Positions 2,223 to 25,396 of a stretch of 32,000 nt of DNA are shown piece by piece. The stretch is from Nitrososphaera viennensis EN76. GTDB lineage: Archaea > Thermoproteota > Nitrososphaeria > Nitrososphaerales > Nitrososphaeraceae. The notes below the pieces were generated by a model, which was given only the letters and a program-made list of their open reading frames with translations, made no database searches and had not been told where the DNA came from. Positions within the stretch are counted from its first letter, which is position 1. Every line of letters starts with the position of its first letter. The translations under genes and the position numbers were made by a program. The stretch spans positions 2,250,001 through 2,282,000 of the forward strand of contig NZ_CP007536.1 in NCBI RefSeq assembly GCF_000698785.1. Direction: 5' to 3'.

Positions 2223-3101
2223 ATGTCGTATACCCCGACAGGCAGTTTTAACATACTGAAACGCCTCCAATTTGTTGAAGAAAGTACTTTTGGCCAAGCC
2301 CCTGCCTCTCCGTCGTTTGTGCTTGCAGGCCACAACGTCTCGCTGCGCGAGACCACCGAGGTCTCGGCGCAAAAGTACCGGGACCTCGGGAGCAGGGACC
2401 TGTACAAGATGCTAAAGACGGGCGAGATGTACTCCTTTGAGCTGCGCTACCAGCCGATAAACACCGCCCTTCTCAGGTACGGGACAGAGCTTCCAAACGG
2501 CGCTGGCACGATAGAAAAGTCGCTTGCGTTTGTCTACACGCAGCTCGTCAACGGGACGGAGACGTGGCACAGGTTCCTCGGCGCAAGGACAGACCAGGTG
2601 GAAATCGAGGTGACAGAGGCGTCCGTGCAGGTGTCGCACCGCTTTTTGTGCAAGGACATACCCGCCACCGTCACCGCAGACCCGTTCACCACGCCCACGT
2701 ACGCCGGCGCCGACACGTCGGCCCCGTACACGGGTGTCTCTTCCGGCTCCAACCCGCTTACCATAAACTCGGAGACGTACGACACGCCGCGCTTCAAGGT
2801 GTCGGTCAACTGGAACCTGGACGTCGTCAAGCCAAACGGCGAGGTGCAGGCCAAGTTCATCCTGCCCACAAACCGCGACATCACAGTCGAGTTTGACACG
2901 TGGGTCAAGGACGACGTGCTTCGCGCAGACACCAAGTCGCTTGCGGCAAGGTCTGCCAGCTACACCATTGCGCCCGGCAAGTCGCTCACGTTCACGGACC
3001 TGTACCTTGCAAAGCAGAGCAAGAACAACGACGCAAACGACGCCAAGGTCCTTATCGAGACGCTGACCGGGACTGCCAGGTCGATGTCGGTGAGCCCGTG
3101 A
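2223..3101 (+). CDS. Major virion structural protein, best guess major tail (tube) protein. A capsid role is not excluded.
   Basis: 292-aa ORF. It is immediately followed by the overlapping chaperone pair and then the tape measure gene, which is the canonical order major tail, G/GT, TMP. The ATG lies 35 nt after the motif at 2188. Confidence 0.5.
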   Translation: MSYTPTGSFNILKRLQFVEESTFGQAPASPSFVLAGHNVSLRETTEVSAQKYRDLGSRDLYKMLKTGEMYSFELRYQPINTALLRYGTELPNGAGTIEKSLAFVYTQLVNGTETWHRFLGARTDQVEIEVTEASVQVSHRFLCKDIPATVTADPFTTPTYAGADTSAPYTGVSSGSNPLTINSETYDTPRFKVSVNWNLDVVKPNGEVQAKFILPTNRDITVEFDTWVKDDVLRADTKSLAARSASYTIAPGKSLTFTDLYLAKQSKNNDANDAKVLIETLTGTARSMSVSP

Positions 3102-3466
3102 TGGCTGCTATCGAGTCAAGCCTCGAGGCTTTCTATGCCTCGCTTATCGAGGAGAACGAAAAGCGCATAATGGAGCACATGAAGCAGGATTCTTTTGACC
3201 TTTGCGGCAAAACTTTTCGCTACCGCAAGATAACCACCGCGCAGCACTTGGAGCTTGACAGGATGCAGGCGGGTATAGAGGACCTCGTGCTCGCCAAGGG
3301 CGCTACCAAGCTAGAGATAACCGCCAAGCTTGCAGAGATTTACCAGAAAAGGGCGCAGTACCACCTCGGCATGGACGCAGACACGTTCTATTCCCTTCCG
3401 TGGGAGGACGTAAAGCCGGTCCTCGACGCGTGCGTGAGGAGGACGCGCCGGGGCCACCCTTTGTGA
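3101..3466 (+). CDS. Tail assembly chaperone, G-like short product
   Basis: Its ATG overlaps the upstream TGA (ATGA at 3099-3103). The 121-aa acidic helical protein ends 1 codon after a C_CCT_TTG heptamer. Its position is between the major tail protein and the tape measure. Confidence 0.55.
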   Translation: MAAIESSLEAFYASLIEENEKRIMEHMKQDSFDLCGKTFRYRKITTAQHLELDRMQAGIEDLVLAKGATKLEITAKLAEIYQKRAQYHLGMDADTFYSLPWEDVKPVLDACVRRTRRGHPL

Positions 3467-3690
3467 GGCGTGACCTGGAAGTCTTGTACACGACAGGGGC
3501 GGTGCAGTGGTCCTGCCGCGAAAGCAAGGAGGTTTACGACATGGTGACTCTTGTCGAGATGGGCGTCTCGCTCAGGGACATTGCAGGCGACACGTACAGG
3601 GAAGACCTCAACTACCTGCTCTTTGTGCGGGACTTGAAGGCGCAGGCGTCGCGCAGCGGCCTGCTGGAAGGATTTCGGAGGGTGGGCTAG
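3101..3690 (+). CDS. Tail assembly chaperone, GT-like -1 frameshift product (predicted, about 196 aa)
   Basis: The -1 frame is open from 3400 to the TAG at 3688-3690 and overlaps the end of the zero-frame ORF. The X_XXY_YYZ heptamer C_CCT_TTG lies at 3457-3463 in the correct register. Confidence 0.45.
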
Positions 3691-3694
3691 TCTG

Positions 3695-4072
3695 GTGCTT
3701 TCGGTCAAGGGGGTAAGCGAGGCAATGCGCATACTGGACGAAGTGTCGCGCGAGCTTGCCGGAGGAGACATTGCCGGCGCAAGCCTTGAGGCGGTAGGCA
3801 AAGCAGCGCTGGATCTTGCCAACGCCCAGACTCCTGTCGACACGGGGCTGCTTGTCTCAAACAACAAGATGGAGATGAAAAGCAAGGCCGAGCTGGTGCT
3901 GTATAACGACACACCCTATGCAGGCCACGTCCACTATGGCACGTCAAGGATGCATCCAAGGCCGTTCTTCTACCCTGCCCTGCGCTTTCTCGAAGAGCGC
4001 TTTCCGCGGCTGTACGCGCAGGAAGTGGGCGCCTTTGTGCACAAGACGGTGTCGCTGAATTCTGCCAGGTAA
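3695..4072 (+). CDS. HK97 gp10-family head-tail/tail completion protein
   Basis: The sequence ...AQTPVDTGLLVSNN...YNDTPYAGHVHYGTSRMHPRPFFYPAL matches my memory of the HK97 gp10 family pattern (PxDTGxL ... Y...G). Possible starts are GTG at 3695 or ATG at 3725. Confidence 0.6.
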   Translation: MLSVKGVSEAMRILDEVSRELAGGDIAGASLEAVGKAALDLANAQTPVDTGLLVSNNKMEMKSKAELVLYNDTPYAGHVHYGTSRMHPRPFFYPALRFLEERFPRLYAQEVGAFVHKTVSLNSAR

Positions 4073-4107: not shown

Positions 4108-5892
4108 TTGAGCACATCATTTACTGCTATCCCTCTTGAATTTCTGATTAAACTCCAGGGCGAGGCGGAGGCACGGGCGCAGATACAGAGCCTCGGCGGC
4201 GCGTTTCAGAACTTTGGCAACGACGCGGCAACAGCCGCGTCAAAGGCAGACGGCGCGGCTGAAAGCAACGAAAAGGTAAAGGTGTCGTTCAAGGATACAA
4301 TCCAGGCATTCAACGACGTGGCAAGCTCGGCCACGACATTGTATAATGCCTACGATGACCTGGCTGACAAGCAGCTACGGATCGAAAAGGCAGAGGCCGC
4401 TGTCACTTCGGCCGAGAACAGCCTGACCTCTGCGCGCAACAAGCTGAACGAAATGACGGCCAAGGGGATCGCGTCGGGCCCAGAGTACGAGAAGCAGCTC
4501 TCCAAAGTCGAGGGCGCGGAAGAAAGGCTGACTCTGGCCACAAAAAATGTCGAAAAGGCGCAGGGCGACATGCAGGAGGCACAGATCAAGTTCGCCCTTG
4601 ACGTAGTGCCGACCGTCATATCGATGGCGTCAAGCCTGCAGATCGGCCTCCGCGGCCTCAGCGCGGCCAACTTTGGCGTGGCAACCAGCGCGCCGGCGGC
4701 CGGCGCGGGTATGCGCGGGGTTGGTACGGCCATGCGCGCCACGCTTGCGGCCATGGGGCCTGTTGGCTGGGTGCTCCTGGGCATTTCCGCTGCAATGACT
4801 ATTGTCGCCACCAACGCCTTTGGCGTGCGCGACGCGATAAACGAAATGGGCAAGAGGATAGGCGACGCAGTGCCCATACTAAAGCCATTGCTCGAAGGCT
4901 TGAACCAGCTTGCGGCAACGATATTTCCGGAATCTGCTTCCAGGGCCGAGGAGATGAACGCCCGGATGGACGCAAGTATGAAAGAAACTGCAAGTTCTAC
5001 AGCCAGCTCCATCACCGAGCAGTCAAGCAGCCTGTCGGACATGAACACTGCATATGCGCAGGCGCAGGAAAGCGTCACCAAGTCGATGCAGACAATGCAG
5101 GACAGCATTACGTCGTCTTCAACCGCGATAATCAAGCAGATCGATGAGCTTGAAGCCCGCATGAGCAGCATCGGCATCTCTGGCGGAATGATGGCAAAGA
5201 GCGCCGCAGACAGCCTCGCAGGACAGATGCAGAATCCCGGGACGCAAACGCCTCCTGCCGCCAGCTCTGCTGCAACGGATCTTGCAAAACAAGAGCAGGA
5301 CAAACAAGCGGCTGACCGCCTTGCAGTGCTCGACAAGCAAATATCCGACATGCGATCACAGATTGCGGCACTCGGTGGCGGCCTTGGTATTGAAAGGCTG
5401 CGCGAGCTTGGCTTTGACAGGGGAGCCGGGGGCGCGACTATGGGTAACCAGATAACCCAGTTGTTTGCACAGCTGGCACCCTTGGAGGACGAAAAAAAGG
5501 CAATTCTTGACGCGCAAGACAAGGCGGAAAAGGATGCCATTGCAGCAAAGTATGCAGAGTACGCTGACAAACTGAGGCTCCCGAAAAGCAAGATAACGAG
5601 TATGGAGCAGGGCTTGGCGGAGGGTTCAAGGCGCCAGACCGTGCTTGCGTACATGAATGCGCTTGCCGCACAGGCTGACCAACATGAGTCCAAAAATATC
5701 ACACTGCAGCTGAAAGAAAACTTGAACCTGTCAACCCAAGTCCTGCCAATGACTAAAGAAGAGGCGATCCGGGGCAGGTCTGACGCTGCGATGCACCCTT
5801 GGATGTATCCTGAAACAATGATAGTCGAGATAGGGGGCGAGCCGTTTGAAGCGTATGTCAAGAGGATACCTGTGAAGGATATGCCGACATAG
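4108..5892 (+). CDS. Tail tape measure protein
   Basis: 594 aa, long and rich in Ala/Gln/Glu. It has coiled-coil-like sequence with a central hydrophobic Gly/Ala-rich block (VVPTVISMASS...GWVLLGISAAMTIVATNAF). It is the largest gene of the module and lies downstream of the chaperone pair. TTG start. Confidence 0.8.
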   Translation: MSTSFTAIPLEFLIKLQGEAEARAQIQSLGGAFQNFGNDAATAASKADGAAESNEKVKVSFKDTIQAFNDVASSATTLYNAYDDLADKQLRIEKAEAAVTSAENSLTSARNKLNEMTAKGIASGPEYEKQLSKVEGAEERLTLATKNVEKAQGDMQEAQIKFALDVVPTVISMASSLQIGLRGLSAANFGVATSAPAAGAGMRGVGTAMRATLAAMGPVGWVLLGISAAMTIVATNAFGVRDAINEMGKRIGDAVPILKPLLEGLNQLAATIFPESASRAEEMNARMDASMKETASSTASSITEQSSSLSDMNTAYAQAQESVTKSMQTMQDSITSSSTAIIKQIDELEARMSSIGISGGMMAKSAADSLAGQMQNPGTQTPPAASSAATDLAKQEQDKQAADRLAVLDKQISDMRSQIAALGGGLGIERLRELGFDRGAGGATMGNQITQLFAQLAPLEDEKKAILDAQDKAEKDAIAAKYAEYADKLRLPKSKITSMEQGLAEGSRRQTVLAYMNALAAQADQHESKNITLQLKENLNLSTQVLPMTKEEAIRGRSDAAMHPWMYPETMIVEIGGEPFEAYVKRIPVKDMPT

Positions 5893-5936: not shown

Positions 5937-6533
5937 GTGACTCTTCCAAAGGGGTACAGGCCGGAAAGGGTTCTCTGGCAGGACGACATCACCCAGGGCC
6001 TTTTCAGGCAAAGCGTGGTCGAGCACCGGGAAATAACCACGCTCCGGGTCATCAAGAACGAGGTCGGCATCAGGCTTGCAGACATTGACGAGATATTGGT
6101 AGTAAACACAGAGATAGAGTATGATTCGGTGTATCACGACAGGAGAAAAAACCGCGCGCTTGGCCCGGAGGGCAGATTCAACGCCAAGACACGGGTCATC
6201 GGCGACATCCAGTTTTTCCAGAACGGCAACCTTGTGCTTGTCCTCAACGATGTCTATGATCCAGAGGAAGTGGCAGGCATCGTGCGGTCTGCAAGGGCTG
6301 GAGCCGCCGAAGAACAGGCGCTGCGCAGGGTCAAAGAGGTCCTGGCCGGGCAAGCTCCTGTATCGGGCAGCAGGACTCCTGTGTCCTGCCCCTCATGTGC
6401 AGGCGAAAACCCTCCTGGATCTAATTTCTGCAACAAGTGCGGCGCCGCGCTTCCCCCTGGATGCCCAAAGTGCGGCAGCAGCAACCTGACCGGGTCTTCG
6501 TTCTGCAGCATGTGCGGCAGCCCTCTCAGCTAG
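5937..6533 (+). CDS. Distal-tail-position protein with a C-terminal double zinc ribbon
   Basis: 198-aa ORF directly after the tape measure gene. The C-terminus is CPSCAGENPPGSNFCNKCGAALPPGCPKCGSSNLTGSSFCSMCG, which is two CxxC...CxxC ribbons. GTG start. Confidence 0.6.
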   Translation: MTLPKGYRPERVLWQDDITQGLFRQSVVEHREITTLRVIKNEVGIRLADIDEILVVNTEIEYDSVYHDRRKNRALGPEGRFNAKTRVIGDIQFFQNGNLVLVLNDVYDPEEVAGIVRSARAGAAEEQALRRVKEVLAGQAPVSGSRTPVSCPSCAGENPPGSNFCNKCGAALPPGCPKCGSSNLTGSSFCSMCGSPLS

Positions 6534-19201: not shown

Positions 19202-19594
19202 ATGGCAGTAAAAAGAAGAGTATTACATTACGCAGCAGCCGCTGCGACCGCGATTGGAGGCATACTGCACCTCATCCTTGCGCCAAACATGCTTGGATTC
19301 AACACCAATACGGGCCTGTTTTTCCTCATAGGCGGGATCGCCCAGGTCTTCTGGGTCGTACCGACGATAAGGAGGTGGGGCAAACCATGGTACGCGGTCG
19401 GCATTGGCGGCACGGCTGTCCTGGTGGCGGTATACTTTATCACAAGGGTGCCGGGCAACCCGATCACCGGCAGAGGAGGCGGCGTGAATCCGATGGCGAT
19501 TGCAGTCGAGGTTGCGCAGCTGGCGTTCATCGGACTGTGCATCGCGATTCTTGCAATGGCCGGGAAAAAGAAAGAGGAAGCAGGCAAAAAATGA
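19202..19594 (+). CDS. Four-TM membrane protein, first gene of the ABC operon
   Basis: 130 aa from the ATG at 19202, with four hydrophobic helices. Its stop overlaps the next start (ATGA at 19591-19594). Confidence 0.6.
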   Translation: MAVKRRVLHYAAAAATAIGGILHLILAPNMLGFNTNTGLFFLIGGIAQVFWVVPTIRRWGKPWYAVGIGGTAVLVAVYFITRVPGNPITGRGGGVNPMAIAVEVAQLAFIGLCIAILAMAGKKKEEAGKK

Positions 19595-20361
19595 CGCACC
19601 CTTATCATCATCATGATCCTTCTGCAAGGCCGGAATTCCATGAAGAAACAGGAGGTGCCGCGGACTTGCCCAGAGATATCGCGCTGGAAGCGAAGGACCT
19701 GTACAAGGTGTTTGGCTCGGGTGCCGGCAAAGTGGTGGCACTAAAGCACGCGACTTTTACAGTGAAAAAAGGCGAGTTTGTGGCCATAGTCGGGCCTTCA
19801 GGAAGCGGCAAGTCCACCCTGCTCAACCTCCTTGGAGCCATCGACAGGCCTACTTCGGGCAAAGTCATCATAAACGGAGTGGACATTTTCTCTCTCGGCG
19901 ACCAGGAAATAGCAACGATGAGGAACAAGCTCATCGGCTTTATCTTCCAGTCGTACAACCTGATAAACAGGACCACGGTCCTGAGAAACGTCGAGCTCCC
20001 TGCAATCGTGATGGAGATAGGCAAGGAGGAAAGGCGCAACAGGGCGCTAAAAGTGCTTGAAGTGCTGGGAATAAAGGACAAGGCAAACTTCAAGCCGACA
20101 AGCCTGAGCGGAGGGCAGCAGCAGCGAGTCGCCATCGCAAGGTCGCTGATGAACAATCCTGCAATCCTGCTTGCTGACGAGCCGACTGGAAACCTTGACA
20201 CCAAGACGGGAAACGAGGTTTTCGCGCTCTTGAAAATGCTGTCGCACAAATTCCGCATGACGATAATAATGGTGACGCACAACCCAGAGCTTGCAGCCGC
20301 CACCGACCGCGCCATCTACGTCAGGGATGGTGGCATCGAAAAGGAGGTCAGGAATTTATGA
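19591..20361 (+). CDS. ABC transporter ATP-binding protein, MacB/LolD-type
   Basis: Walker [10 protein letters not shown], signature [15 protein letters not shown], Walker [14 protein letters not shown]-loop VTHN. It also has a His-rich N-terminal extension, MTHPYHHHD. Confidence 0.9.
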
Positions 20362-22367
20362 TGAGGATGATGACGCCTGGCAGCAAAGTTAGCGCAGGCA
20401 CGCGGATCCTGTCACTCCTTTTAATCGGAATCCTGCTCTTTTCTCTTTCGTCGGTCGTCCTGACAGGCGCAAGCGCGCAGAGCGAGCTACCGCAACCATC
20501 CGAGAGGCAGATCATCGACGCGTCAGTGAGCGGCCCAGCGTTTCTCAACGCATATTGGATCGACCGCAGCACGAGCACCTCTGCTGCCGCCGATGTCCGA
20601 AAAGAAGTCGGGCCGGGAGATGGCGCGTCGACGCTGGCCGTGGTGATGGTGAACAGGGGGTTCTCTGCAATCACCGGTGTTACCGGCCTGCTTACCCTGC
20701 CAGCAGGATTCTCGTCCAATGGCAGGGCCTCTCCCGGTGGCACCGCCCTTGCCACCGTTGACAGCGTGGTGGACGCTGGCCAGACATTCATCCTGTACTT
20801 TGACCTGGATGTCTCTAACAGCACCCATGTCGGGACGTACAACACCGCGCTAAAGGTAGAATACCAGAGATTGTATGAAACTGGGAGCCCGCGGAGTAAC
20901 GAGGACACCATCCCGTTCAGGCTGACTGGCAAGGTCATCCTTGATCCTGTAGCAGTCACGCACAACCTGGTACCCGGCGTGTCAAACAACGTCGACATTG
21001 CGATAAGGAACACTGGCAGCGCGCCTGCAACCGGCGTGATAGTGTCGATAACTGGCATCAGCATAAACGGCGGATCGACAAGCACAATTGAGAGCTCTTC
21101 AGGCGCAACAATCAGGCCGCAGATAACCAACTTTGGGACAAACACCTTTACCCTCGGCACGATACCGGCAAGGTCAAACGCCACGCTCACCACAACCTTG
21201 TTTCCAAACATATCCGCGGGAGGAAACACTGCAGGCATACAACTGCAAATCACGTACAACGATGCGACAGGCAGCGCCAAGACCCTGACGCCGGCGATAG
21301 GGGTCATTGTGCTGCAGAATGCGCCCTCGGTCATTGGCGTGAGGGCTTCCTCGGGCGAGAACCAGACCGACAACCGCATAGTCGCCGGCAAGGCGGATAA
21401 CTTTGTCCTTGAAATCGCAAACAAGGGCACCAGCAGGATAAACAACGCGGTCGTGACCATGCAGTCCAGCTCTACTTCTCTGAACATACTTGGCGATTCA
21501 AAGTGGGCAGTAGACGAGATCGACCCCGGCTCGCAGGCCAAGCTTGAAACTCAGGTGTTTGCATCAACCTCGCTTATCGGCAACCCGGCAACGTTTGACG
21601 TGACCATCGACTACATCCTTGACGGGTCGCCCAAGACGGAAAAGTACGTCCTTGGGACATATGTTGACGGCGAAATAGTGCTCCGCGTCTACGGTTTATC
21701 GATCAACTACGTCGGAGCCACGCCTACCCTCGTCGGCAACATACTCAATGAGGGCAACACCGCGGCATTTTTCACGACAGTCGAGCTGGTGCAAGCACCT
21801 GGAGAAAGCCAGCCTGCTCAGCGGGGCAACAACTCTGCTGGCAGTAGCGGGCAGTCCAGCTCTCAATTTCCGCAACAGGGCGCTACCCCGGGCGGCGGGC
21901 AAAGGAACAACAATACTGCCGCCACCGCGCCTGCCCCGCAGTACCTTGGCGACCTGACGGCAAACTCGCCGCTTCCATTCAGCATACCGATGGACATCCC
22001 GCGCAACTCTGCAGCCGGCACGACGCATCCCGTGACGCTAAAAATAACCTACAAGGACAACCTGAGAAACTCCCACGAGTTTGTAACCAGCGCAAATGCC
22101 GTCTTGGCACAGCAACAGGCTTCTGCATCTCCTGCAGGGAGAATAATCCAGAACCAGAACGGGAGCCAATTCTTCATGATGGTAGTAATAATAATAGGCG
22201 TCGCAATAGCGGCCGCAGCAGCCGCCTTTTTCGTAGTCAAAAAGAGGCGCGCAAATGCAAAAAAGCTGAAAGAAGTTCAGGATGACGGCCCTGACAAGCG
22301 CAAGAACATCGAGGACATACTGGAAAACCCTGCTACGGATACAAAAGATCCGCCGACATCATCGTGA
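20358..22367 (+). CDS. Large surface protein with repeated CARDB/COG1361-like beta-sandwich modules, an N-terminal signal and a C-terminal TM anchor
   Basis: 669 aa. Recurrent ...(I/V)xNxG(x)xxAxxVxV... modules include DIAIRNTGSAPATGVIV, LEIANKGTSRINNAVVT and VMVNRGFSAITGVTG. There is a Gln/Ser/Gly low-complexity linker. The C-terminal helix FFMMVVIIIGVAIAAAAAAFFVV is followed by KKRR. Confidence 0.75.
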   Translation: MMRMMTPGSKVSAGTRILSLLLIGILLFSLSSVVLTGASAQSELPQPSERQIIDASVSGPAFLNAYWIDRSTSTSAAADVRKEVGPGDGASTLAVVMVNRGFSAITGVTGLLTLPAGFSSNGRASPGGTALATVDSVVDAGQTFILYFDLDVSNSTHVGTYNTALKVEYQRLYETGSPRSNEDTIPFRLTGKVILDPVAVTHNLVPGVSNNVDIAIRNTGSAPATGVIVSITGISINGGSTSTIESSSGATIRPQITNFGTNTFTLGTIPARSNATLTTTLFPNISAGGNTAGIQLQITYNDATGSAKTLTPAIGVIVLQNAPSVIGVRASSGENQTDNRIVAGKADNFVLEIANKGTSRINNAVVTMQSSSTSLNILGDSKWAVDEIDPGSQAKLETQVFASTSLIGNPATFDVTIDYILDGSPKTEKYVLGTYVDGEIVLRVYGLSINYVGATPTLVGNILNEGNTAAFFTTVELVQAPGESQPAQRGNNSAGSSGQSSSQFPQQGATPGGGQRNNNTAATAPAPQYLGDLTANSPLPFSIPMDIPRNSAAGTTHPVTLKITYKDNLRNSHEFVTSANAVLAQQQASASPAGRIIQNQNGSQFFMMVVIIIGVAIAAAAAAFFVVKKRRANAKKLKEVQDDGPDKRKNIEDILENPATDTKDPPTSS

Positions 22368-22381
22368 GTGTGTAATGTGCG

Positions 22382-23668
22382 ATGAAGATCGACGATATCT
22401 ACTACCTCTCGTTTGAAGCCCTCCGGGACAGGAAGGTCCGCTCCGCCCTGACGATACTGATGGTAGTGGTGGGAAGCTCCCTAATGGTCGCGCTCAACGG
22501 CCTCACCGCGGGATTTGGAGTGTTTATCGAAAAGCAGTTCAGCAACTTGGCAAGCAACGTCCTGACCCTGACCAACTCTGGCGGAGGCGGCACCTTTGTT
22601 GGTGGAGGCGGAGGAGGCGTTGTCATTTCTGCCGGCGGCCAGCCTCAATCGTCCGGCACCACGGTCACCTTTAACGCCGCGGTAGTCACAAAGGTAAAGA
22701 CACTGCCACTGGTAAACGATGTCATACCCACGTACACGGGGCGCGTCACGCTAGAGTCGCAGGGAAGAGAGAGGAGCGTTTCCGTGTTTTCAATAGATCC
22801 AGACAAGCTTGTGACCATAGCGCCCACGATACAGTACAAGGAAGGCGCAAAACTGGAGCAGAACGACCCCACTGGGATGGTGGTCGCGGACTTCATCGCC
22901 AATCCCGAAGGCCAGCCGACCCCGTTCCTCGTAGTCGGACAGACGGTCAAGGCGTCCTACTCGTTTGTGGATCCGTACACCGGCGAGGACAAGCAAGAGT
23001 CAAGGTCGTTCATAATAAGAGGCGTAATGGCCCAGACGGGAAACCCGAGCATCGACAGGGCCGTAATAATCAGCCCCGAGATCGCAAACTCGCTCCTGCA
23101 CAAGAATGGCAGGTACGACTCTCTCATGGTAGTCGTGCCGTCGCCGGACGACGTCAGCACGGTGCAGGATGAAATCCGGGTTATATATGGCAACGGCGTC
23201 GGCATCAGCACCCCGCAGGCAGTACTGCAGGCAAGGCAGCAATTTACGTCCGGCTTTAGCTCTTTTATCCTGGCAATAGCGCTGGTCGCGCTGGTCGTGG
23301 GCGCAGTCGGCATCGTGACAACTCTCTACACTTCTGTCACGGAGAGGATCCGCGAAATCGGCACAATAAAGGCGATAGGAGCTCTCAACAAGGACATACT
23401 CTTGATCTTCATAAGCGAAGCCTCGATAATAGGGGTAATTGGGGCCACGCTGGGGCTGGTGTTTGGAATTACAGCAGGGTCCCTCCTGACAGGCGTATTC
23501 AGTTTCGGGCCGAGAACGGGCGGTGGCCAAGATATATCGCCGGTTTACCTGCCATCGGACCTCCTGTACGTGTGGGGCCTGTCCGTAGGGCTGAGCCTGA
23601 TGGCCGGCATTTACCCTGCATGGAAGGCGTCGCGGCTTGAGCCCATCGTTGCTTTGAGGCGGGACTGA
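22382..23668 (+). CDS. ABC transporter permease, MacB/FtsX family
   Basis: 428 aa. The N-terminal TM (RSALTILMVVVGSSLMVAL) is followed by a large extracytoplasmic domain and three C-terminal TMs with the FtsX-type ...ERIREIGTIKAIGA... motif. Confidence 0.85.
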   Translation: MKIDDIYYLSFEALRDRKVRSALTILMVVVGSSLMVALNGLTAGFGVFIEKQFSNLASNVLTLTNSGGGGTFVGGGGGGVVISAGGQPQSSGTTVTFNAAVVTKVKTLPLVNDVIPTYTGRVTLESQGRERSVSVFSIDPDKLVTIAPTIQYKEGAKLEQNDPTGMVVADFIANPEGQPTPFLVVGQTVKASYSFVDPYTGEDKQESRSFIIRGVMAQTGNPSIDRAVIISPEIANSLLHKNGRYDSLMVVVPSPDDVSTVQDEIRVIYGNGVGISTPQAVLQARQQFTSGFSSFILAIALVALVVGAVGIVTTLYTSVTERIREIGTIKAIGALNKDILLIFISEASIIGVIGATLGLVFGITAGSLLTGVFSFGPRTGGGQDISPVYLPSDLLYVWGLSVGLSLMAGIYPAWKASRLEPIVALRRD

Positions 23669-23986: not shown

Positions 23987-25396
23987 TTATTTGCGCGCTT
24001 TTCCCAGCCCAAACTCTTCATGCAGGGCATTTACCGCGCGCTCACAGTCGCTGTCGTTCACCACAAATGCGAGGTTCAGCTCCGACGAGCCCTGTGCTAT
24101 CATTATGACGTTGATGCTGCGCTTGGCGACGGCGCCAAACACCTTTGCCGCCACGCCCTTTATCCCGCGCATGCCCGAGCCCACCACCGCAATGACTGCA
24201 ACGTCATCGCTCACGTTCACCTGCTTTATCACCTTGCCAAGCAGGTTCAGTTCAAGCGTGGTTGTCGCCTTGTCAAGGTCGCTCTTGCGCAGGACCATGG
24301 AGATGCTCGACTCCGACGGGCTCTGGGATATCATCATGATGTTCACCCTGTTCCTGGCAAGCGTGTCAAAGATCTTGGCCGCAGTCCCCGGCGCCCCCAC
24401 CATGCCGCCTCCGCTCACGTCGACGAGCGCTGTGTGGCGTATTGCGCTTACCGACTTCACTATCTTTTGCGAGTCGCGGCTTGGGTTCTGCGTGATTACC
24501 GTGCCGGGGTGCTTGACGTTGAACGTGTTGCGTATGCGTATCGGGATCTTGGTGTCCATGACGGGCTCTAGCGCCCTTGGGTGCATGTACTTGGCGCCAA
24601 AGAGCGCCATCTCCATCGCCTCTGCAAACGAGACCTCCTTTAGCACCTGCGCGCTTTTCACTATCTTGGGGTCCGCTGTCATCAGGCCGTCAACGTCGCT
24701 CCAAAGCCACACCTCGCTTGCGCCGACGCTTGCCGCGACTATGGTCGCGGTATAGTCCGAGCCTCCGCGCCCTATCGTAGTCGTGTTGCCGTGCTGGTCT
24801 GCGCCGATAAAGCCAGTTATGACCGGCACCGCCCCGCGCTTTGTTATCGGGCCAAGCCTGTGGTTCACGCGAAGCTTTGTCGTGTCCATTAGCGGGCGGG
24901 CCTCGCCGAAATTGGAATCCGTCACGATGCCTGCCTCCTTGCCGGTAAGGTATTCCGAGTCGACGCCGATGTCCCTGAGGGCGTACGCGACTATCGGGGT
25001 CGACAGGCGCTCGCCAAACGACATCAGGTAGTCAAGCGACTTGGGCGTCACCTCTCCCAGAAGGACGATGCCTCCAAGCACGTCTTTGAGCTCGCCGATC
25101 GTCTTTCTCACGTCTGCAAGCGCGTCTTCCCTTAGTTTCTTGTCGGATATCGCGCCGCTTGCAATGTCGGTGTGGATCTTTAATGATTTTTTCACGAAAT
25201 CCTCGATCGAGGTGCGGTCGCCGCGCCTCACGCTGTCTGCTATGGACAGGAGGCCGTCGGTCATGCCCCTGACCGCAGAAACAACGCAAACGACGTCGTT
25301 GCCTGGCTTGTGGGATGACTTTATCAGCTGCGCTACGTGCCGGACCTTGTCTGGCGAGTCCACCGCCGTACCGCCAAACTTCATCACGATTATCAT
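23987..25396 (-). CDS. lysC: Aspartate kinase
   Basis: The N-terminus VMKFGGTAV is followed by an amino-acid kinase fold with ...GGSDYTA..., and there are two ACT-like C-terminal repeats. Length 469 aa. Confidence 0.9.
   Translation of the reverse strand: MIIVMKFGGTAVDSPDKVRHVAQLIKSSHKPGNDVVCVVSAVRGMTDGLLSIADSVRRGDRTSIEDFVKKSLKIHTDIASGAISDKKLREDALADVRKTIGELKDVLGGIVLLGEVTPKSLDYLMSFGERLSTPIVAYALRDIGVDSEYLTGKEAGIVTDSNFGEARPLMDTTKLRVNHRLGPITKRGAVPVITGFIGADQHGNTTTIGRGGSDYTATIVAASVGASEVWLWSDVDGLMTADPKIVKSAQVLKEVSFAEAMEMALFGAKYMHPRALEPVMDTKIPIRIRNTFNVKHPGTVITQNPSRDSQKIVKSVSAIRHTALVDVSGGGMVGAPGTAAKIFDTLARNRVNIMMISQSPSESSISMVLRKSDLDKATTTLELNLLGKVIKQVNVSDDVAVIAVVGSGMRGIKGVAAKVFGAVAKRSINVIMIAQGSSELNLAFVVNDSDCERAVNALHEEFGLGKARK

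What the first reader, a model, noticed from the sequence alone, without database searches (positions are those of the whole stretch)
3101..3690. Candidate programmed -1 frameshift (G/GT-type tail chaperone) in an archaeal virus-like element
The 121-aa ORF 3101..3466 lies between the putative major tail protein and the tape measure gene. An ORF in the -1 frame, open from 3400 to 3690, overlaps it.

One codon before the zero-frame stop, the sequence cac CCT TTG tga contains C_CCT_TTG at 3457-3463. This is an X_XXY_YYZ heptamer in the correct register for tandem tRNA slippage. Slipping there would give ...RRGHPF-VRRDLEVLYTTG... and a product of about 196 aa ending at 3690.

This arrangement of two overlapping ORFs and a slippery site near the end of the first, upstream of the TMP, is the conserved G/GT arrangement of bacterial long-tailed phages. 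I could not identify a convincing downstream stimulatory hairpin by eye.
Basis: partly seen in the sequence, partly recalled or inferred. Interest (0 to 1): 0.65.

Follow-up and report, generated by a model that had tools for sequence, protein, structure and literature searches.

The report
Frameshifted tail chaperone in thaumarchaeal provirus
A provirus in the soil ammonia-oxidising archaeon Nitrososphaera viennensis most probably makes its tail-assembly helper in a short and a long form by letting some ribosomes slip back one base, a trick long known in bacterial phages that is conserved across this previously unnamed group of thaumarchaeal virus proteins.

Summary
ORF 3101-3466 (121 aa, "G") ends ...cac CCT TTG TGA. 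C_CCT_TTG (3457-3463) is an in-register X_XXY_YYZ heptamer, the only one in the ORF. The -1 frame then runs to 3690 (75 more codons, "T"), giving a 196-aa product. Its junction is GHPL-VRRD, not HPF-VRRD.

I collected 20 distinct loci with G homologues (roughly 25-45% identity), mostly metagenomic plus two Nitrososphaerota MAGs.
- T lies in the -1 frame in 15 loci, and two truncated contigs show its start there. It is fused in-frame to G in 2 copies. It is never in the +1 frame.
- 15 of the 17 loci have a canonical in-register heptamer at the homologous codons, in six sequence variants. The other two have X_XXT_TCT.
- T homology starts right at the heptamer. In at least 7 loci no start codon is available there.
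- Two G homologues without T lack the heptamer.

G sits directly after the tail tube gene, but an HK97 gp10-like gene separates T from the tape-measure-like gene. G and T match no Pfam, PHROG, NCBIfam or PDB family. Fold matches to phage tail assembly chaperones are weak. No downstream stimulatory RNA structure was found. I class it as a new member of a known kind.

The parts
2223..3101 (+). Tail tube (major tail) protein gene, 292 aa. Its stop overlaps the G start (TGATG).
   Evidence: Pfam Phage_tube_2 (PF18906), E = 4.4e-24, 85.9 bits against a cut-off of 27. The same family lies next to G homologues in other loci.
3101..3466 (+). 'G' ORF, 121 aa, the zero-frame product and proposed tail assembly chaperone. 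It is a helical protein with one beta-hairpin.
   Evidence: About 22 representative homologues at E down to 1e-17. AlphaFold2 pLDDT 94. No hit in Pfam, PHROGs, NCBIfam or PDB sequences. Weak BFVD fold matches, several of them named tail assembly chaperone.
3457..3463 (+). Slippery heptamer C_CCT_TTG in the X_XXY_YYZ register. P-site CCU re-pairs to CCC and A-site UUG re-pairs to UUU.
   Evidence: It is the only in-register heptamer in the ORF. The identical heptamer sits at the homologous codons in L016, L030 and L032, each preceded by a different amino-acid codon that ends in C.
3464..3466 (+). Zero-frame stop TGA, directly 3' of the heptamer. Together with G3463 it forms GTGA.
3463..3690 (+). 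'T' segment in the -1 frame: 75 codons plus TAG. It is proposed to be made only as the C-terminal extension of the 196-aa GT fusion (3101-3463 joined to 3463-3690).
   Evidence: The T-domain HMM match starts at 3466, E = 6e-22. The alignment with 11 other conceptual fusions and the natural fusion P0026 has no gap at the junction. The AlphaFold2 model is helical with pLDDT 60-77.
3695..4072 (+). HK97 gp10-like tail completion / head-tail connector gene, inserted between T and the tape-measure-like gene.
   Evidence: NCBIfam TIGR01725, 33.6 bits against a cut-off of 30.8. PHROG 5, E = 2e-15. Pfam PF04883, E = 0.01. A gene with the same Pfam family hit follows the G/T pair in L017 and L018, and unscanned ORFs of similar size do so in other loci.
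4108..5892 (+). Tape-measure-like protein gene, 594 aa. It is rich in Ala, Ser and Gln, with a central hydrophobic stretch.
   Evidence: Assigned from its sequence, its position, and the gene map of Nvie-Pro1 in PMC6563490, which lists MTP and TMP. No family hit, so the assignment is inferred.

Best explanation
**What it is.** The window covers the tail module of the Nitrososphaera viennensis provirus Nvie-Pro1. Genes 3101-3466 and 3463-3690 form a G/GT-type pair of tail assembly chaperones expressed by programmed -1 ribosomal frameshifting.

**How it works.** Most ribosomes translate G (121 aa) and stop at TGA 3464. A minority slip back one base while CCU and UUG of C_CCU_UUG (3457-3463) occupy the P and A sites. 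An alternative is that the slip happens while tRNA-Leu sits in the P site and the UGA stop waits in the A site. Slipped ribosomes continue in the -1 frame to 3690 and make a 196-aa GT fusion with the junction ...GHPL-VRRDLEV....

**Likely function.** By analogy with phage lambda gpG/gpGT, the G part would coat the tape-measure-like protein (4108-5892), and the T part would recruit the tube protein (2223-3101) to start tail polymerisation. Neither form would end up in the finished tail.

**Shown:** the sequence anatomy and its conservation across the family. **Inferred:** that slippage actually occurs, its efficiency, and the chaperone function.
For: **Source.** The G protein is encoded identically on record FR725450.1 and on a 2.53-Mb contig. 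PMC6563490 describes Nvie-Pro1 in N. viennensis EN76.

**Frame relation.**
- HMMs of G and T run on frame translations place T in the -1 frame in 15 loci: 14 and L036.
- Two further truncated contigs (L019, L022) show the start of T-like sequence in the -1 frame.
- T is fused in-frame to G in 2 copies (L011/P0026 and the second copy in L021). It is never in the +1 frame.

**Heptamers at the homologous Gly-x-Pro-Phe/Leu codons.**
- C_CCT_TTG: window, L016, L030, L032.
- T_TTT_TTA: L014, L017, L018, L019, L027, L028.
- T_TTT_TTC: L029.
- A_AAA_AAC: L020.
- C_CCA_AAC: L022, L024.
- C_CCA_AAT: L036.
- The two exceptions share a variant: T_TTT_TCT in L025 and C_CCT_TCT in the third copy in L011.

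**Codon-level constraint.** Given the amino acids and uniform synonymous codon choice, each site has a 1-8% chance (25% in L029) of forming a heptamer. The summed log10 p over 14 loci is -19. The background rate is 0.004 per codon.

**No independent start in relatives.**
- The heptamer lies 0 to 16 codons upstream of the G stop.
- In L017, L018, L020, L022, L024, L030, L032 and L036 the -1 frame opens only 0-9 codons before the heptamer.
- In L016, L017, L018, L020, L022, L024 and L032 there is no ATG/GTG/TTG between that opening, or any plausible point, and the conserved T residues.

**Natural fusion.** P0026 (245 aa) was seen on 5 contigs, and the three places shown come from three samples. 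It joins G and T in one frame with no slippery sequence. It aligns as GLPY|VSMNLRNLFF against GHPL|VRRDLEVLYT.

**Negative controls.** The G homologues without a T ORF (L033, L034) have no heptamer at the site.

**Context and fold.**
- The pair follows the tube gene, and the gp10-like and TMP-like genes come after it.
- BFVD fold matches to G and GT are weak (E = 3e-3 to 1, TM 0.4-0.6). Most functionally named hits, and every one that states a function, are 'tail assembly chaperone', including the one from haloarchaeal virus HCTV-1.

**Precedent.** -1 G-T frameshifting is predicted in the haloarchaeal siphoviruses HVTV-1 and HCTV-1, -2 and -5 (PMC5009743).
Against: - There is no experimental evidence for the fusion product.
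- In this window, and in L014, a start codon (GTG 3463; ATG in L014) overlaps the G stop. Coupled re-initiation giving a free 75-aa T protein therefore cannot be excluded for this particular locus.
- No stimulatory RNA structure follows the site. Folding z-scores are about 0 for the window and range from -2 to +1.9 in 14 loci.
- G and T belong to no known tail-assembly-chaperone family by sequence. The PDB fold search found nothing, and the BFVD matches are below significance.
- A gp10-like gene separates T from the TMP-like gene, unlike the canonical order.
- Nvie-Pro1 has no detected att sites or replication genes. It may be a domesticated or inactive element (PMC6563490), so the site might not be in use today.
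- The loci are related, so the combined probability overstates independence.
Confidence: 0.8

Rival explanations
1. G and T are two separate genes. T (75 aa from GTG 3463, 86 aa from GTG 3430, or 49 aa from ATG 3541) is translated on its own, for example by termination-reinitiation at the GTGA overlap. The heptamer would then be incidental.
For: - Gene callers and public annotation call T as a separate CDS from GTG 3463 or GTG 3430.
- Overlaps of the GTGA/ATGA type are a common coupling arrangement. L014 has ATGA at the same place.
- GGAGG lies 8 nt upstream of ATG 3541.
Against: - In L016, L017, L018, L020, L022, L024 and L032 the homologous T sequence has no start codon at or before its conserved N-terminal residues. 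In L017, L018, L020, L024, L027, L028 and L036 it begins 9-16 codons upstream of the G stop.
- The GTG/ATG in the window and L014 is an automatic by-product of a heptamer ending in G or A followed by TGA. L029, with TTC TGA, has no start codon there.
- T homology, the LExLYxxG motif, extends 25 codons upstream of ATG 3541. The GGAGG encodes the conserved KEVYDM motif.
- Most genes of this operon have no Shine-Dalgarno-like motif.
- The public start calls disagree with each other.
Confidence: 0.1
2. The signal is an inherited relic. Nvie-Pro1 is a decaying or domesticated element whose tail genes are no longer expressed, so the heptamer and T frame are intact in sequence but do nothing now.
For: PMC6563490 reports no att sites and no replication genes for Nvie-Pro1. 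It raises both a GTA-like domesticated state and an inactivated provirus.
Against: - All morphogenetic ORFs in the window are intact and tightly packed.
- G, the heptamer and the 75-codon T frame are undisrupted.
- The same paper argues that conservation of the morphogenetic module speaks against decay.
- This rival concerns present-day use, not what the feature is.
Confidence: 0.08
3. The frame change is made at the RNA level: RNA polymerase slips on a homopolymer run, and the ribosome does not.
For: Many relatives have T6 or A6 runs at the site, such as TTTTTTA and AAAAAAC.
Against: - The window and three relatives use CCCTTTG, and three others use CCCAAAC/T. None of these has a run longer than three bases.
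- From general knowledge, productive transcriptional slippage usually needs runs of about 8-9 or more.
- The strict codon register of every site fits tRNA re-pairing, not polymerase slippage.
Confidence: 0.01
4. It is a chance coincidence of a heptamer and an open -1 frame.
For: For the window alone, the chance of an in-register heptamer somewhere in the 22-codon overlap is about 8%.
Against: The heptamer is conserved at the homologous codon in 15 of 17 loci, in six sequence variants. T homology lies in the -1 frame in every case. Heptamer presence tracks the presence of T.
Confidence: 0.01

Closest known systems
Bacteriophage lambda gpG/gpGT and the conserved tail-assembly-chaperone frameshift of long-tailed dsDNA phages (Xu, Hendrix & Duda 2004; summarised in PMC5009743)
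   Same: - Two overlapping ORFs lie downstream of the major tail/tube gene.
- The second ORF is in the -1 frame and has no conserved start of its own.
[quoted passage not shown]
- Short and long products share the N-terminal part.
- The family shows low sequence conservation but a conserved arrangement.
- From my own recollection of the lambda work, which I did not check here, no downstream RNA stimulator is required there either.
   Different: - No sequence-family membership was found in Pfam, PHROGs or NCBIfam.
- The heptamers here are C_CCU_UUG, U_UUU_UUA/C, A_AAA_AAC and C_CCA_AAC/U. Lambda uses G_GGA_AAG, and none of the sites here has the bacterial-type AAG in the A site.
- A gp10-like tail completion gene separates T from the tape-measure-like gene.
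- The host is an archaeon of the Nitrososphaerota.
Predicted G-T -1 frameshifts of the haloarchaeal siphoviruses HVTV-1 and HCTV-1, -2 and -5 (Pietila 2013 and Sencilo 2013, as cited in PMC5009743)
   Same: - Archaeal tailed viruses with a predicted -1 G-T frameshift.
[quoted passage not shown]
- The prediction is bioinformatic only.
- The HCTV-1 tail assembly chaperone appears among the weak fold matches to the GT model.
   Different: - The host phylum differs: Euryarchaeota halophiles against soil and marine ammonia-oxidising Nitrososphaerota.
- No detectable sequence similarity.
- The UUA, UUG and UUC A-site codons used here are not reported for those viruses.
Programmed -1 frameshift in the major capsid protein gene of Methanobrevibacter virus MSTV1 (PMC11375127)
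   Same: - An archaeal tailed virus uses -1 slippage to append a C-terminal domain to a fraction of a structural-module protein.
- One relative has the domain fused in-frame instead, as with P0026 here.
   Different: - A different gene (the capsid protein, with an Ig-like decoration domain).
- A different slippery sequence.
- A different host lineage.

Membership tests
G/GT-type tail assembly chaperone pair expressed by programmed frameshift (Xu et al. 2004 arrangement) | Two overlapping ORFs located immediately downstream of the major tail / tail tube gene | tested here: met
   G starts at the stop of the Phage_tube_2 gene (TGATG). The same adjacency is seen on the L014-type contig. In L015/L016 G abuts an unscanned upstream ORF. 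In L011 and L036 the tube gene lies further upstream.
G/GT-type tail assembly chaperone pair expressed by programmed frameshift (Xu et al. 2004 arrangement) | The pair lies immediately upstream of the tape measure protein gene | tested here: not met
   An HK97 gp10-like gene (3695-4072) intervenes before the TMP-like gene at 4108-5892. The same order occurs in L017, L018 and the L014-type contig. In L030 the order is G/T, a 141-aa ORF, the tube gene, then a long ORF. The pair is near the TMP-like gene but not adjacent to it.
G/GT-type tail assembly chaperone pair expressed by programmed frameshift (Xu et al. 2004 arrangement) | The second ORF is in a shifted frame, has no conserved initiation site of its own, and its homology begins at the shift site | tested here: met
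   T is in the -1 frame in 15 loci, with two truncated contigs also showing its start there. It is never in the +1 frame. At least 7 loci have no start codon before the conserved T residues. The window itself does have GTG 3463.
G/GT-type tail assembly chaperone pair expressed by programmed frameshift (Xu et al. 2004 arrangement) | A slippery sequence in the correct register within the overlap, conserved among relatives | tested here: met
   Six canonical heptamer variants occur in 15 of 17 loci at homologous codons, and two loci have X_XXT_TCT. The probability given the amino acids sums to log10 p = -19.
G/GT-type tail assembly chaperone pair expressed by programmed frameshift (Xu et al. 2004 arrangement) | Both G and GT are actually produced, at a low fixed GT:G ratio, and both are needed for tail assembly but are absent from virions | not testable with these tools
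   This needs proteomics, reporter assays and genetics.
Known tail assembly chaperone protein families (Pfam Phage_TAC families, lambda gpG family, PHROG tail assembly chaperone families) | Significant sequence match of G or T to a curated tail-assembly-chaperone profile | tested here: not met
   The window proteins gave no hits. The 23 G homologues each gave only scattered single chance hits. A profile search against PDB sequences found nothing relevant.
Known tail assembly chaperone protein families (Pfam Phage_TAC families, lambda gpG family, PHROG tail assembly chaperone families) | Structural similarity of G to tail-assembly-chaperone folds | tested here: inconclusive
   The G model is confident (pLDDT 94). 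The PDB search found no match at E <= 0.001. BFVD best E = 2.9e-3, with TM 0.4-0.6. Several hits are named tail assembly chaperone, and no other function is stated among the named hits.
Canonical -1 programmed ribosomal frameshift signal (heptamer plus 3' stimulatory structure) | X_XXY_YYZ heptamer in the zero-frame register | tested here: met
   C_CCT_TTG at 3457-3463.
Canonical -1 programmed ribosomal frameshift signal (heptamer plus 3' stimulatory structure) | Stable hairpin or pseudoknot 5-9 nt downstream | tested here: not met
   Minimum-free-energy z-scores are -0.01 for 3464-3560 and +1.24 for 3440-3620. In 14 loci z ranges from -2.0 to +1.9, with no common structure. Pseudoknots were not searched explicitly.

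The most novel reading that the evidence does not exclude
This may be the first recognised case of conserved programmed -1 ribosomal frameshifting in viruses of Nitrososphaerota (Thaumarchaeota).
- It defines a new tail-assembly-chaperone family that is invisible to Pfam and PHROGs.
- Its shift sites use eukaryote-like A-site codons (UUA, UUG, UUC, AAC, AAU), plus an unusual X_XXU_UCU variant.
- It apparently needs no RNA stimulator.
- Within the family, evolution has moved between frameshifted, in-frame fused and tandemly duplicated chaperones (L011, L021).
- Because N. viennensis can be cultured, it would give a natural test system for -1 frameshifting on a TACK-archaeal ribosome.
- It would also give a functional read-out of whether Nvie-Pro1 is a live provirus or a domesticated GTA-like particle.
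Probability: 0.5. Interest if true: 0.55.

Novelty: new member of a known kind. Interest (0 to 1): 0.45.

Why it matters
- **Annotation.** Public records split this locus into two 'hypothetical' genes with inconsistent starts. The 196-aa GT product is missing from them.
- **Evolution.** The G/GT recoding device, one of the most conserved features of long-tailed phages, would extend to viruses of a second archaeal phylum. That supports deep common ancestry of tail assembly mechanisms.
- **Tools.** The work yields a profile for a tail-chaperone family that current virus-annotation libraries miss. It also gives a simple rule (heptamer plus -1 T domain) for recognising tail modules of thaumarchaeal viruses in soil and marine metagenomes.
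- **Decoding.** It provides a set of natural shift sites for studying -1 frameshifting in archaea, where experimental cases are very few.
- **Status of the provirus.** An intact, selectively maintained recoding signal argues that the Nvie-Pro1 tail module is, or recently was, functional.

Tried and rejected
**Searches that found nothing or failed**
- A word-indexed protein search with the fused 196-aa query returned only the window's own protein. The exhaustive HMMER search was needed to find relatives.
- P0003, a 1386-aa protein with 22 repeats matching residues 121-155, is a repetitive sequence. I dismissed it as spurious.
- The search for related loci with the full G alignment failed because no stretch was conserved enough. 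A subset alignment found nothing in IMG/VR viral contigs, 8 loci in metagenomes and 2 in genomes.
- Pfam, PHROGs and NCBIfam scans of G and T, and of the 23 G homologues, gave no family.
- A PDB sequence profile search and a PDB fold search gave nothing.
With a shallower alignment the T part reached only pLDDT 60-77.
- A second word-indexed search with the GT alignment added only three unnamed G homologues of the L024 type.

**Features tested and set aside**
- No downstream RNA structure stands out, in the window or in 14 loci.
- ATG 3541 with its GGAGG was rejected as the start. The conserved T sequence extends upstream of it, and the motif encodes the conserved KEVYDM.
- An upstream Shine-Dalgarno-like stimulator is unresolved. 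GAGGAGG lies at 3436-3442, and AGGA/GGAG occurs 13-20 nt upstream of the heptamer in 9 of 14 loci. It coincides with a conserved Arg codon, and the operon does not generally use Shine-Dalgarno motifs.
- The window contains no tRNA gene.

**Literature**
- I found no mention of a frameshift or a chaperone for Nvie-Pro1 or other thaumarchaeal viruses in the library held.
- The original Nvie-Pro1 paper (Krupovic et al. 2011, Biochem Soc Trans) is not held, so prior mention there cannot be excluded.
Full report
**1. What is in the sequence**

- ATG 3101 overlaps the stop of the upstream gene (TGATG).
- The ORF runs to TGA 3464-3466 and encodes 121 aa.
- Its last sense codons are CAC CCT TTG, so C_CCT_TTG (3457-3463) lies in the X_XXY_YYZ register. 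It is the only in-register heptamer in the ORF.
- The -1 frame is free of stops from 3259 to TAG 3688-3690.
- A slip at the heptamer gives 121 + 75 = 196 aa.

Two details need correction.
- The A-site Leu is decoded before the slip, so the junction is ...RRGHPL-VRRDLEV..., not HPF-V.
- The pair is not adjacent to the tape-measure-like gene.

**2. Source and neighbourhood**

The G protein is encoded identically on record FR725450.1 and on a 2.53-Mb contig. PMC6563490 describes the provirus Nvie-Pro1 of Nitrososphaera viennensis EN76. It reports a complete tailed-virus morphogenesis module, no recognisable att sites and no replication genes.

Genes around the finding:

| Coordinates | Product | Evidence |
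|---|---|---|
| 2223-3101 | Tail tube protein | Pfam Phage_tube_2, E = 4e-24 |
| 3695-4072 | HK97 gp10-like tail completion protein | NCBIfam TIGR01725 above cut-off; PHROG 5, E = 2e-15 |
| 4108-5892 | 594-aa tape-measure-like protein, Ala/Ser/Gln-rich with a hydrophobic core | Sequence only, no family hit |

From about 11.3 kb onward the window is host DNA, including a multicopper oxidase, ABC transporter genes and aspartate kinase. GC content falls there from 0.57 to 0.49.

**3. Relatives**

- The word-indexed search found only the window's own protein.
- An exhaustive HMMER search with the fused 196-aa query found about 22 representative G homologues of 98-166 aa at 30-43% identity. Many end in ...Gly-x-Pro-Phe/Leu.
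- The same search found one T homologue called as a separate 79-aa ORF (P0021).
- It also found one 245-aa protein (P0026) that spans the junction in a single frame.
- I retrieved DNA for 20 distinct loci besides the window. Two are MAGs labelled Nitrosopumilales and Nitrososphaera.

**4. The comparative test**

HMMs of G and T were run on frame-by-frame translations.
- T is in the -1 frame relative to G in 15 loci: window, L014, L016, L017, L018, L020, L024, L025, L027, L028, L029, L030, L032, the third copy in L011, and L036.
- Two truncated contigs (L019, L022) show the beginning of T-like sequence in the -1 frame.
- T is fused in-frame to G in two copies: P0026 in L011, and the second G copy in L021.
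- T is never in the +1 frame.

At the codons homologous to the window's Pro-Leu, 15 of these 17 loci carry a canonical in-register heptamer.

| Heptamer | Loci |
|---|---|
| C_CCT_TTG | window, L016, L030, L032 |
| T_TTT_TTA | L014, L017, L018, L019, L027, L028 |
| T_TTT_TTC | L029 |
| A_AAA_AAC | L020 |
| C_CCA_AAC | L022, L024 |
| C_CCA_AAT | L036 |
| X_XXT_TCT variant | L025 (T_TTT_TCT), third copy in L011 (C_CCT_TCT) |

My inference for the variant is that tRNA-Ser could re-pair on UUC with a G-U pair in the middle position.

The constraint acts on nucleotides, not on amino acids.
- The residue before the heptamer varies (His, Arg, Ser, Ala, Pro, Leu, Asn), but its third base always matches.
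- Given the amino acids and uniform synonymous codon use, each site has a 1-8% chance of forming a heptamer (25% in L029).
- The summed log10 p over 14 loci is -19. Relatedness of the loci inflates this figure.
- The background rate is 0.0040 per codon.

**5. Why independent initiation is unlikely**

- The heptamer lies 0 to 16 codons upstream of the G stop, and T homology starts directly after it.
- In L017, L018, L020, L022, L024, L030, L032 and L036 the -1 frame is closed by a stop only 0-9 codons upstream of the heptamer.
- In L016, L017, L018, L020, L022, L024 and L032 no ATG, GTG or TTG precedes the conserved N-terminal T motif (LExLYxxG).
- The natural fusion P0026 was seen on five contigs, and the three places shown come from three samples. 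It has no slippery sequence (CTG CCC TAC GTC). It aligns with the conceptual fusions without a gap at the junction.
- Two G homologues that have no T ORF (L033, L034) also lack the heptamer.

In the window, GTG 3463 overlaps the stop as GTGA. Gene callers use it, or GTG 3430, as the T start.
- This GTG is an automatic consequence of a heptamer ending in G followed by TGA. The public start calls also disagree with each other.
- ATG 3541, with GGAGG 8 nt upstream, lies 25 codons inside the conserved T sequence. The GGAGG encodes the conserved KEVYDM motif.
- Genes of this operon generally lack Shine-Dalgarno-like motifs.
- Some re-initiation at 3463 cannot be excluded for this locus.

**6. Mechanism**

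- No downstream structure stands out. The z-score is -0.01 for 3464-3560 and +1.24 for 3440-3620. In 14 loci z ranges from -2.0 to +1.9, with no shared fold.
- Transcriptional slippage is unlikely. CCCTTTG and CCCAAAC/T have no homopolymer run, and the codon register is strict.
- In the window, L014 and L029 the zero-frame stop directly follows the heptamer. A P-site slip while the stop codon waits in the A site would give the same product as tandem slippage. This is an inference.
- A purine-rich AGGA/GGAG motif lies 13-20 nt upstream of the heptamer in 9 of 14 loci. It coincides with a conserved Arg codon, so I make no claim about it.

**7. Is it a tail assembly chaperone?**

- By sequence, no known family matches.
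- The G model is confident (pLDDT 94): a long N-terminal helix, a beta-hairpin and four further helices.
- The PDB fold search found nothing.
- BFVD gave only weak matches (best E = 2.9e-3, TM 0.4-0.6). Most functionally named hits, and every one that states a function, are 'tail assembly chaperone'. For the GT model this includes the one from Haloarcula californiae tailed virus 1.
- The T part is predicted helical with moderate confidence.
- The functional label therefore rests on gene position and on the recoding arrangement, which is itself the hallmark of this class. Homology remains unproven.

**8. Comparison with what is known**

- The G/GT frameshift is conserved in long-tailed phages and has been predicted for the haloarchaeal siphoviruses HVTV-1 and HCTV-1, -2 and -5. 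[quoted passage not shown]
- A -1 frameshift in a capsid gene is described for a methanogen virus. One relative of that virus carries an in-frame fusion, which parallels P0026 (PMC11375127).
- I found no report of this frameshift for Nvie-Pro1 or any thaumarchaeal virus in the library held. The 2011 paper that first described Nvie-Pro1 is not held.

**9. Verdict**

It is a new member, and a new protein family, of a known kind of system. The unusual features are:
- the gp10-like gene between T and the tape-measure-like gene;
- the set of shift sites with UUA, UUG, UUC, AAC or AAU in the A site, and none with AAG;
- the X_XXU_UCU variant;
- loci with tandem or fused chaperone copies.

Interest is moderate. 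Nothing here overturns expectation. It corrects the annotation, extends a conserved recoding device to another archaeal phylum, and offers a tractable test case for -1 frameshifting in archaea.

Noticed in passing
L021 260-1323; L011 6001-8550; L023 2152-2857: Some relatives carry tandem G-like copies.
- In L021 the first copy ends with ctA_AAA_AAT. The -1 frame there runs, with no Met (ATG) in the stretch examined, into a second G-like domain fused in-frame to T. A G1-G2-T product is possible.
- L011 is a 108-kb contig whose TMP-like ORF is annotated at 2867 aa. It has an in-frame G-T fusion (P0026), a solo G copy, and a G/T pair in the -1 register.
- L023 has a second, weaker G-like match (E = 7e-4) in the +1 frame and no heptamer.
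   Followed up: partly
L025 around 3380-3392; L011 8297-8305: The only two -1 G/T loci without a canonical heptamer share the variant X_XXT_TCT (T_TTT_TCT and C_CCT_TCT). This suggests a non-standard shift site in which tRNA-Ser re-pairs UCU to UUC.
   Followed up: partly
window 3695-4072: An HK97 gp10-like tail completion gene sits between the chaperone pair and the tape-measure-like gene. The same order recurs in L017, L018 and the L014-type contig. In L030 the tube gene also follows the chaperone pair. This is a non-canonical tail-module gene order.
   Followed up: partly
window 3430 and 3463: Public gene calls for the T ORF disagree: 86 aa from GTG 3430 (P0029) against 75 aa from GTG 3463 (P0002). 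G also has a 122-aa variant from GTG 3098 (P0028). No record seen here joins G and T.
   Followed up: yes
window 3436-3442, and upstream of the heptamers in L016, L018, L030, L032 and others: A purine-rich AGGA/GGAG motif lies 13-20 nt upstream of the shift site in 9 of 14 loci. It could be a Shine-Dalgarno-like stimulator as in E. coli dnaX, but it coincides with a conserved Arg codon.
   Followed up: partly
window 5937-6533 and 6548-8185: Downstream of the TMP-like gene lie a 198-aa protein with a C-terminal double zinc ribbon (Pfam DZR / Zn_Ribbon_1) and a 545-aa protein with a choice-of-anchor R domain (NCBIfam NF041539). These are unusual components for a tail-tip region.
   Followed up: no
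window about 11300-32000: This stretch is host chromosome. It carries a multicopper oxidase (13586-14608, - strand), two PepSY-domain proteins, an ABC/FtsX-type transporter (19375-23668), aspartate kinase (23987-25396, - strand), a cation efflux protein and GAR synthetase. GC content falls from about 0.57 to 0.49 at 10-11 kb, which marks the approximate right end of the provirus.
   Followed up: partly
L001 3577-4209 (provirus region upstream of the window): Nvie-Pro1 carries a RelA_SpoT-domain gene between the Mu-like portal gene and the capsid gene.
   Followed up: no
C-termini of T segments (window 3676-3687; L014, L016, L030, L032): T segments of the soil clade end in a conserved basic motif, Trp/Phe-Lys/Arg-Lys/Arg/Gln-Val-Gly/Ser (FRRVG, WKKVG, WKQVS, WKRVS). 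It may be the contact with the tube protein.
   Followed up: no
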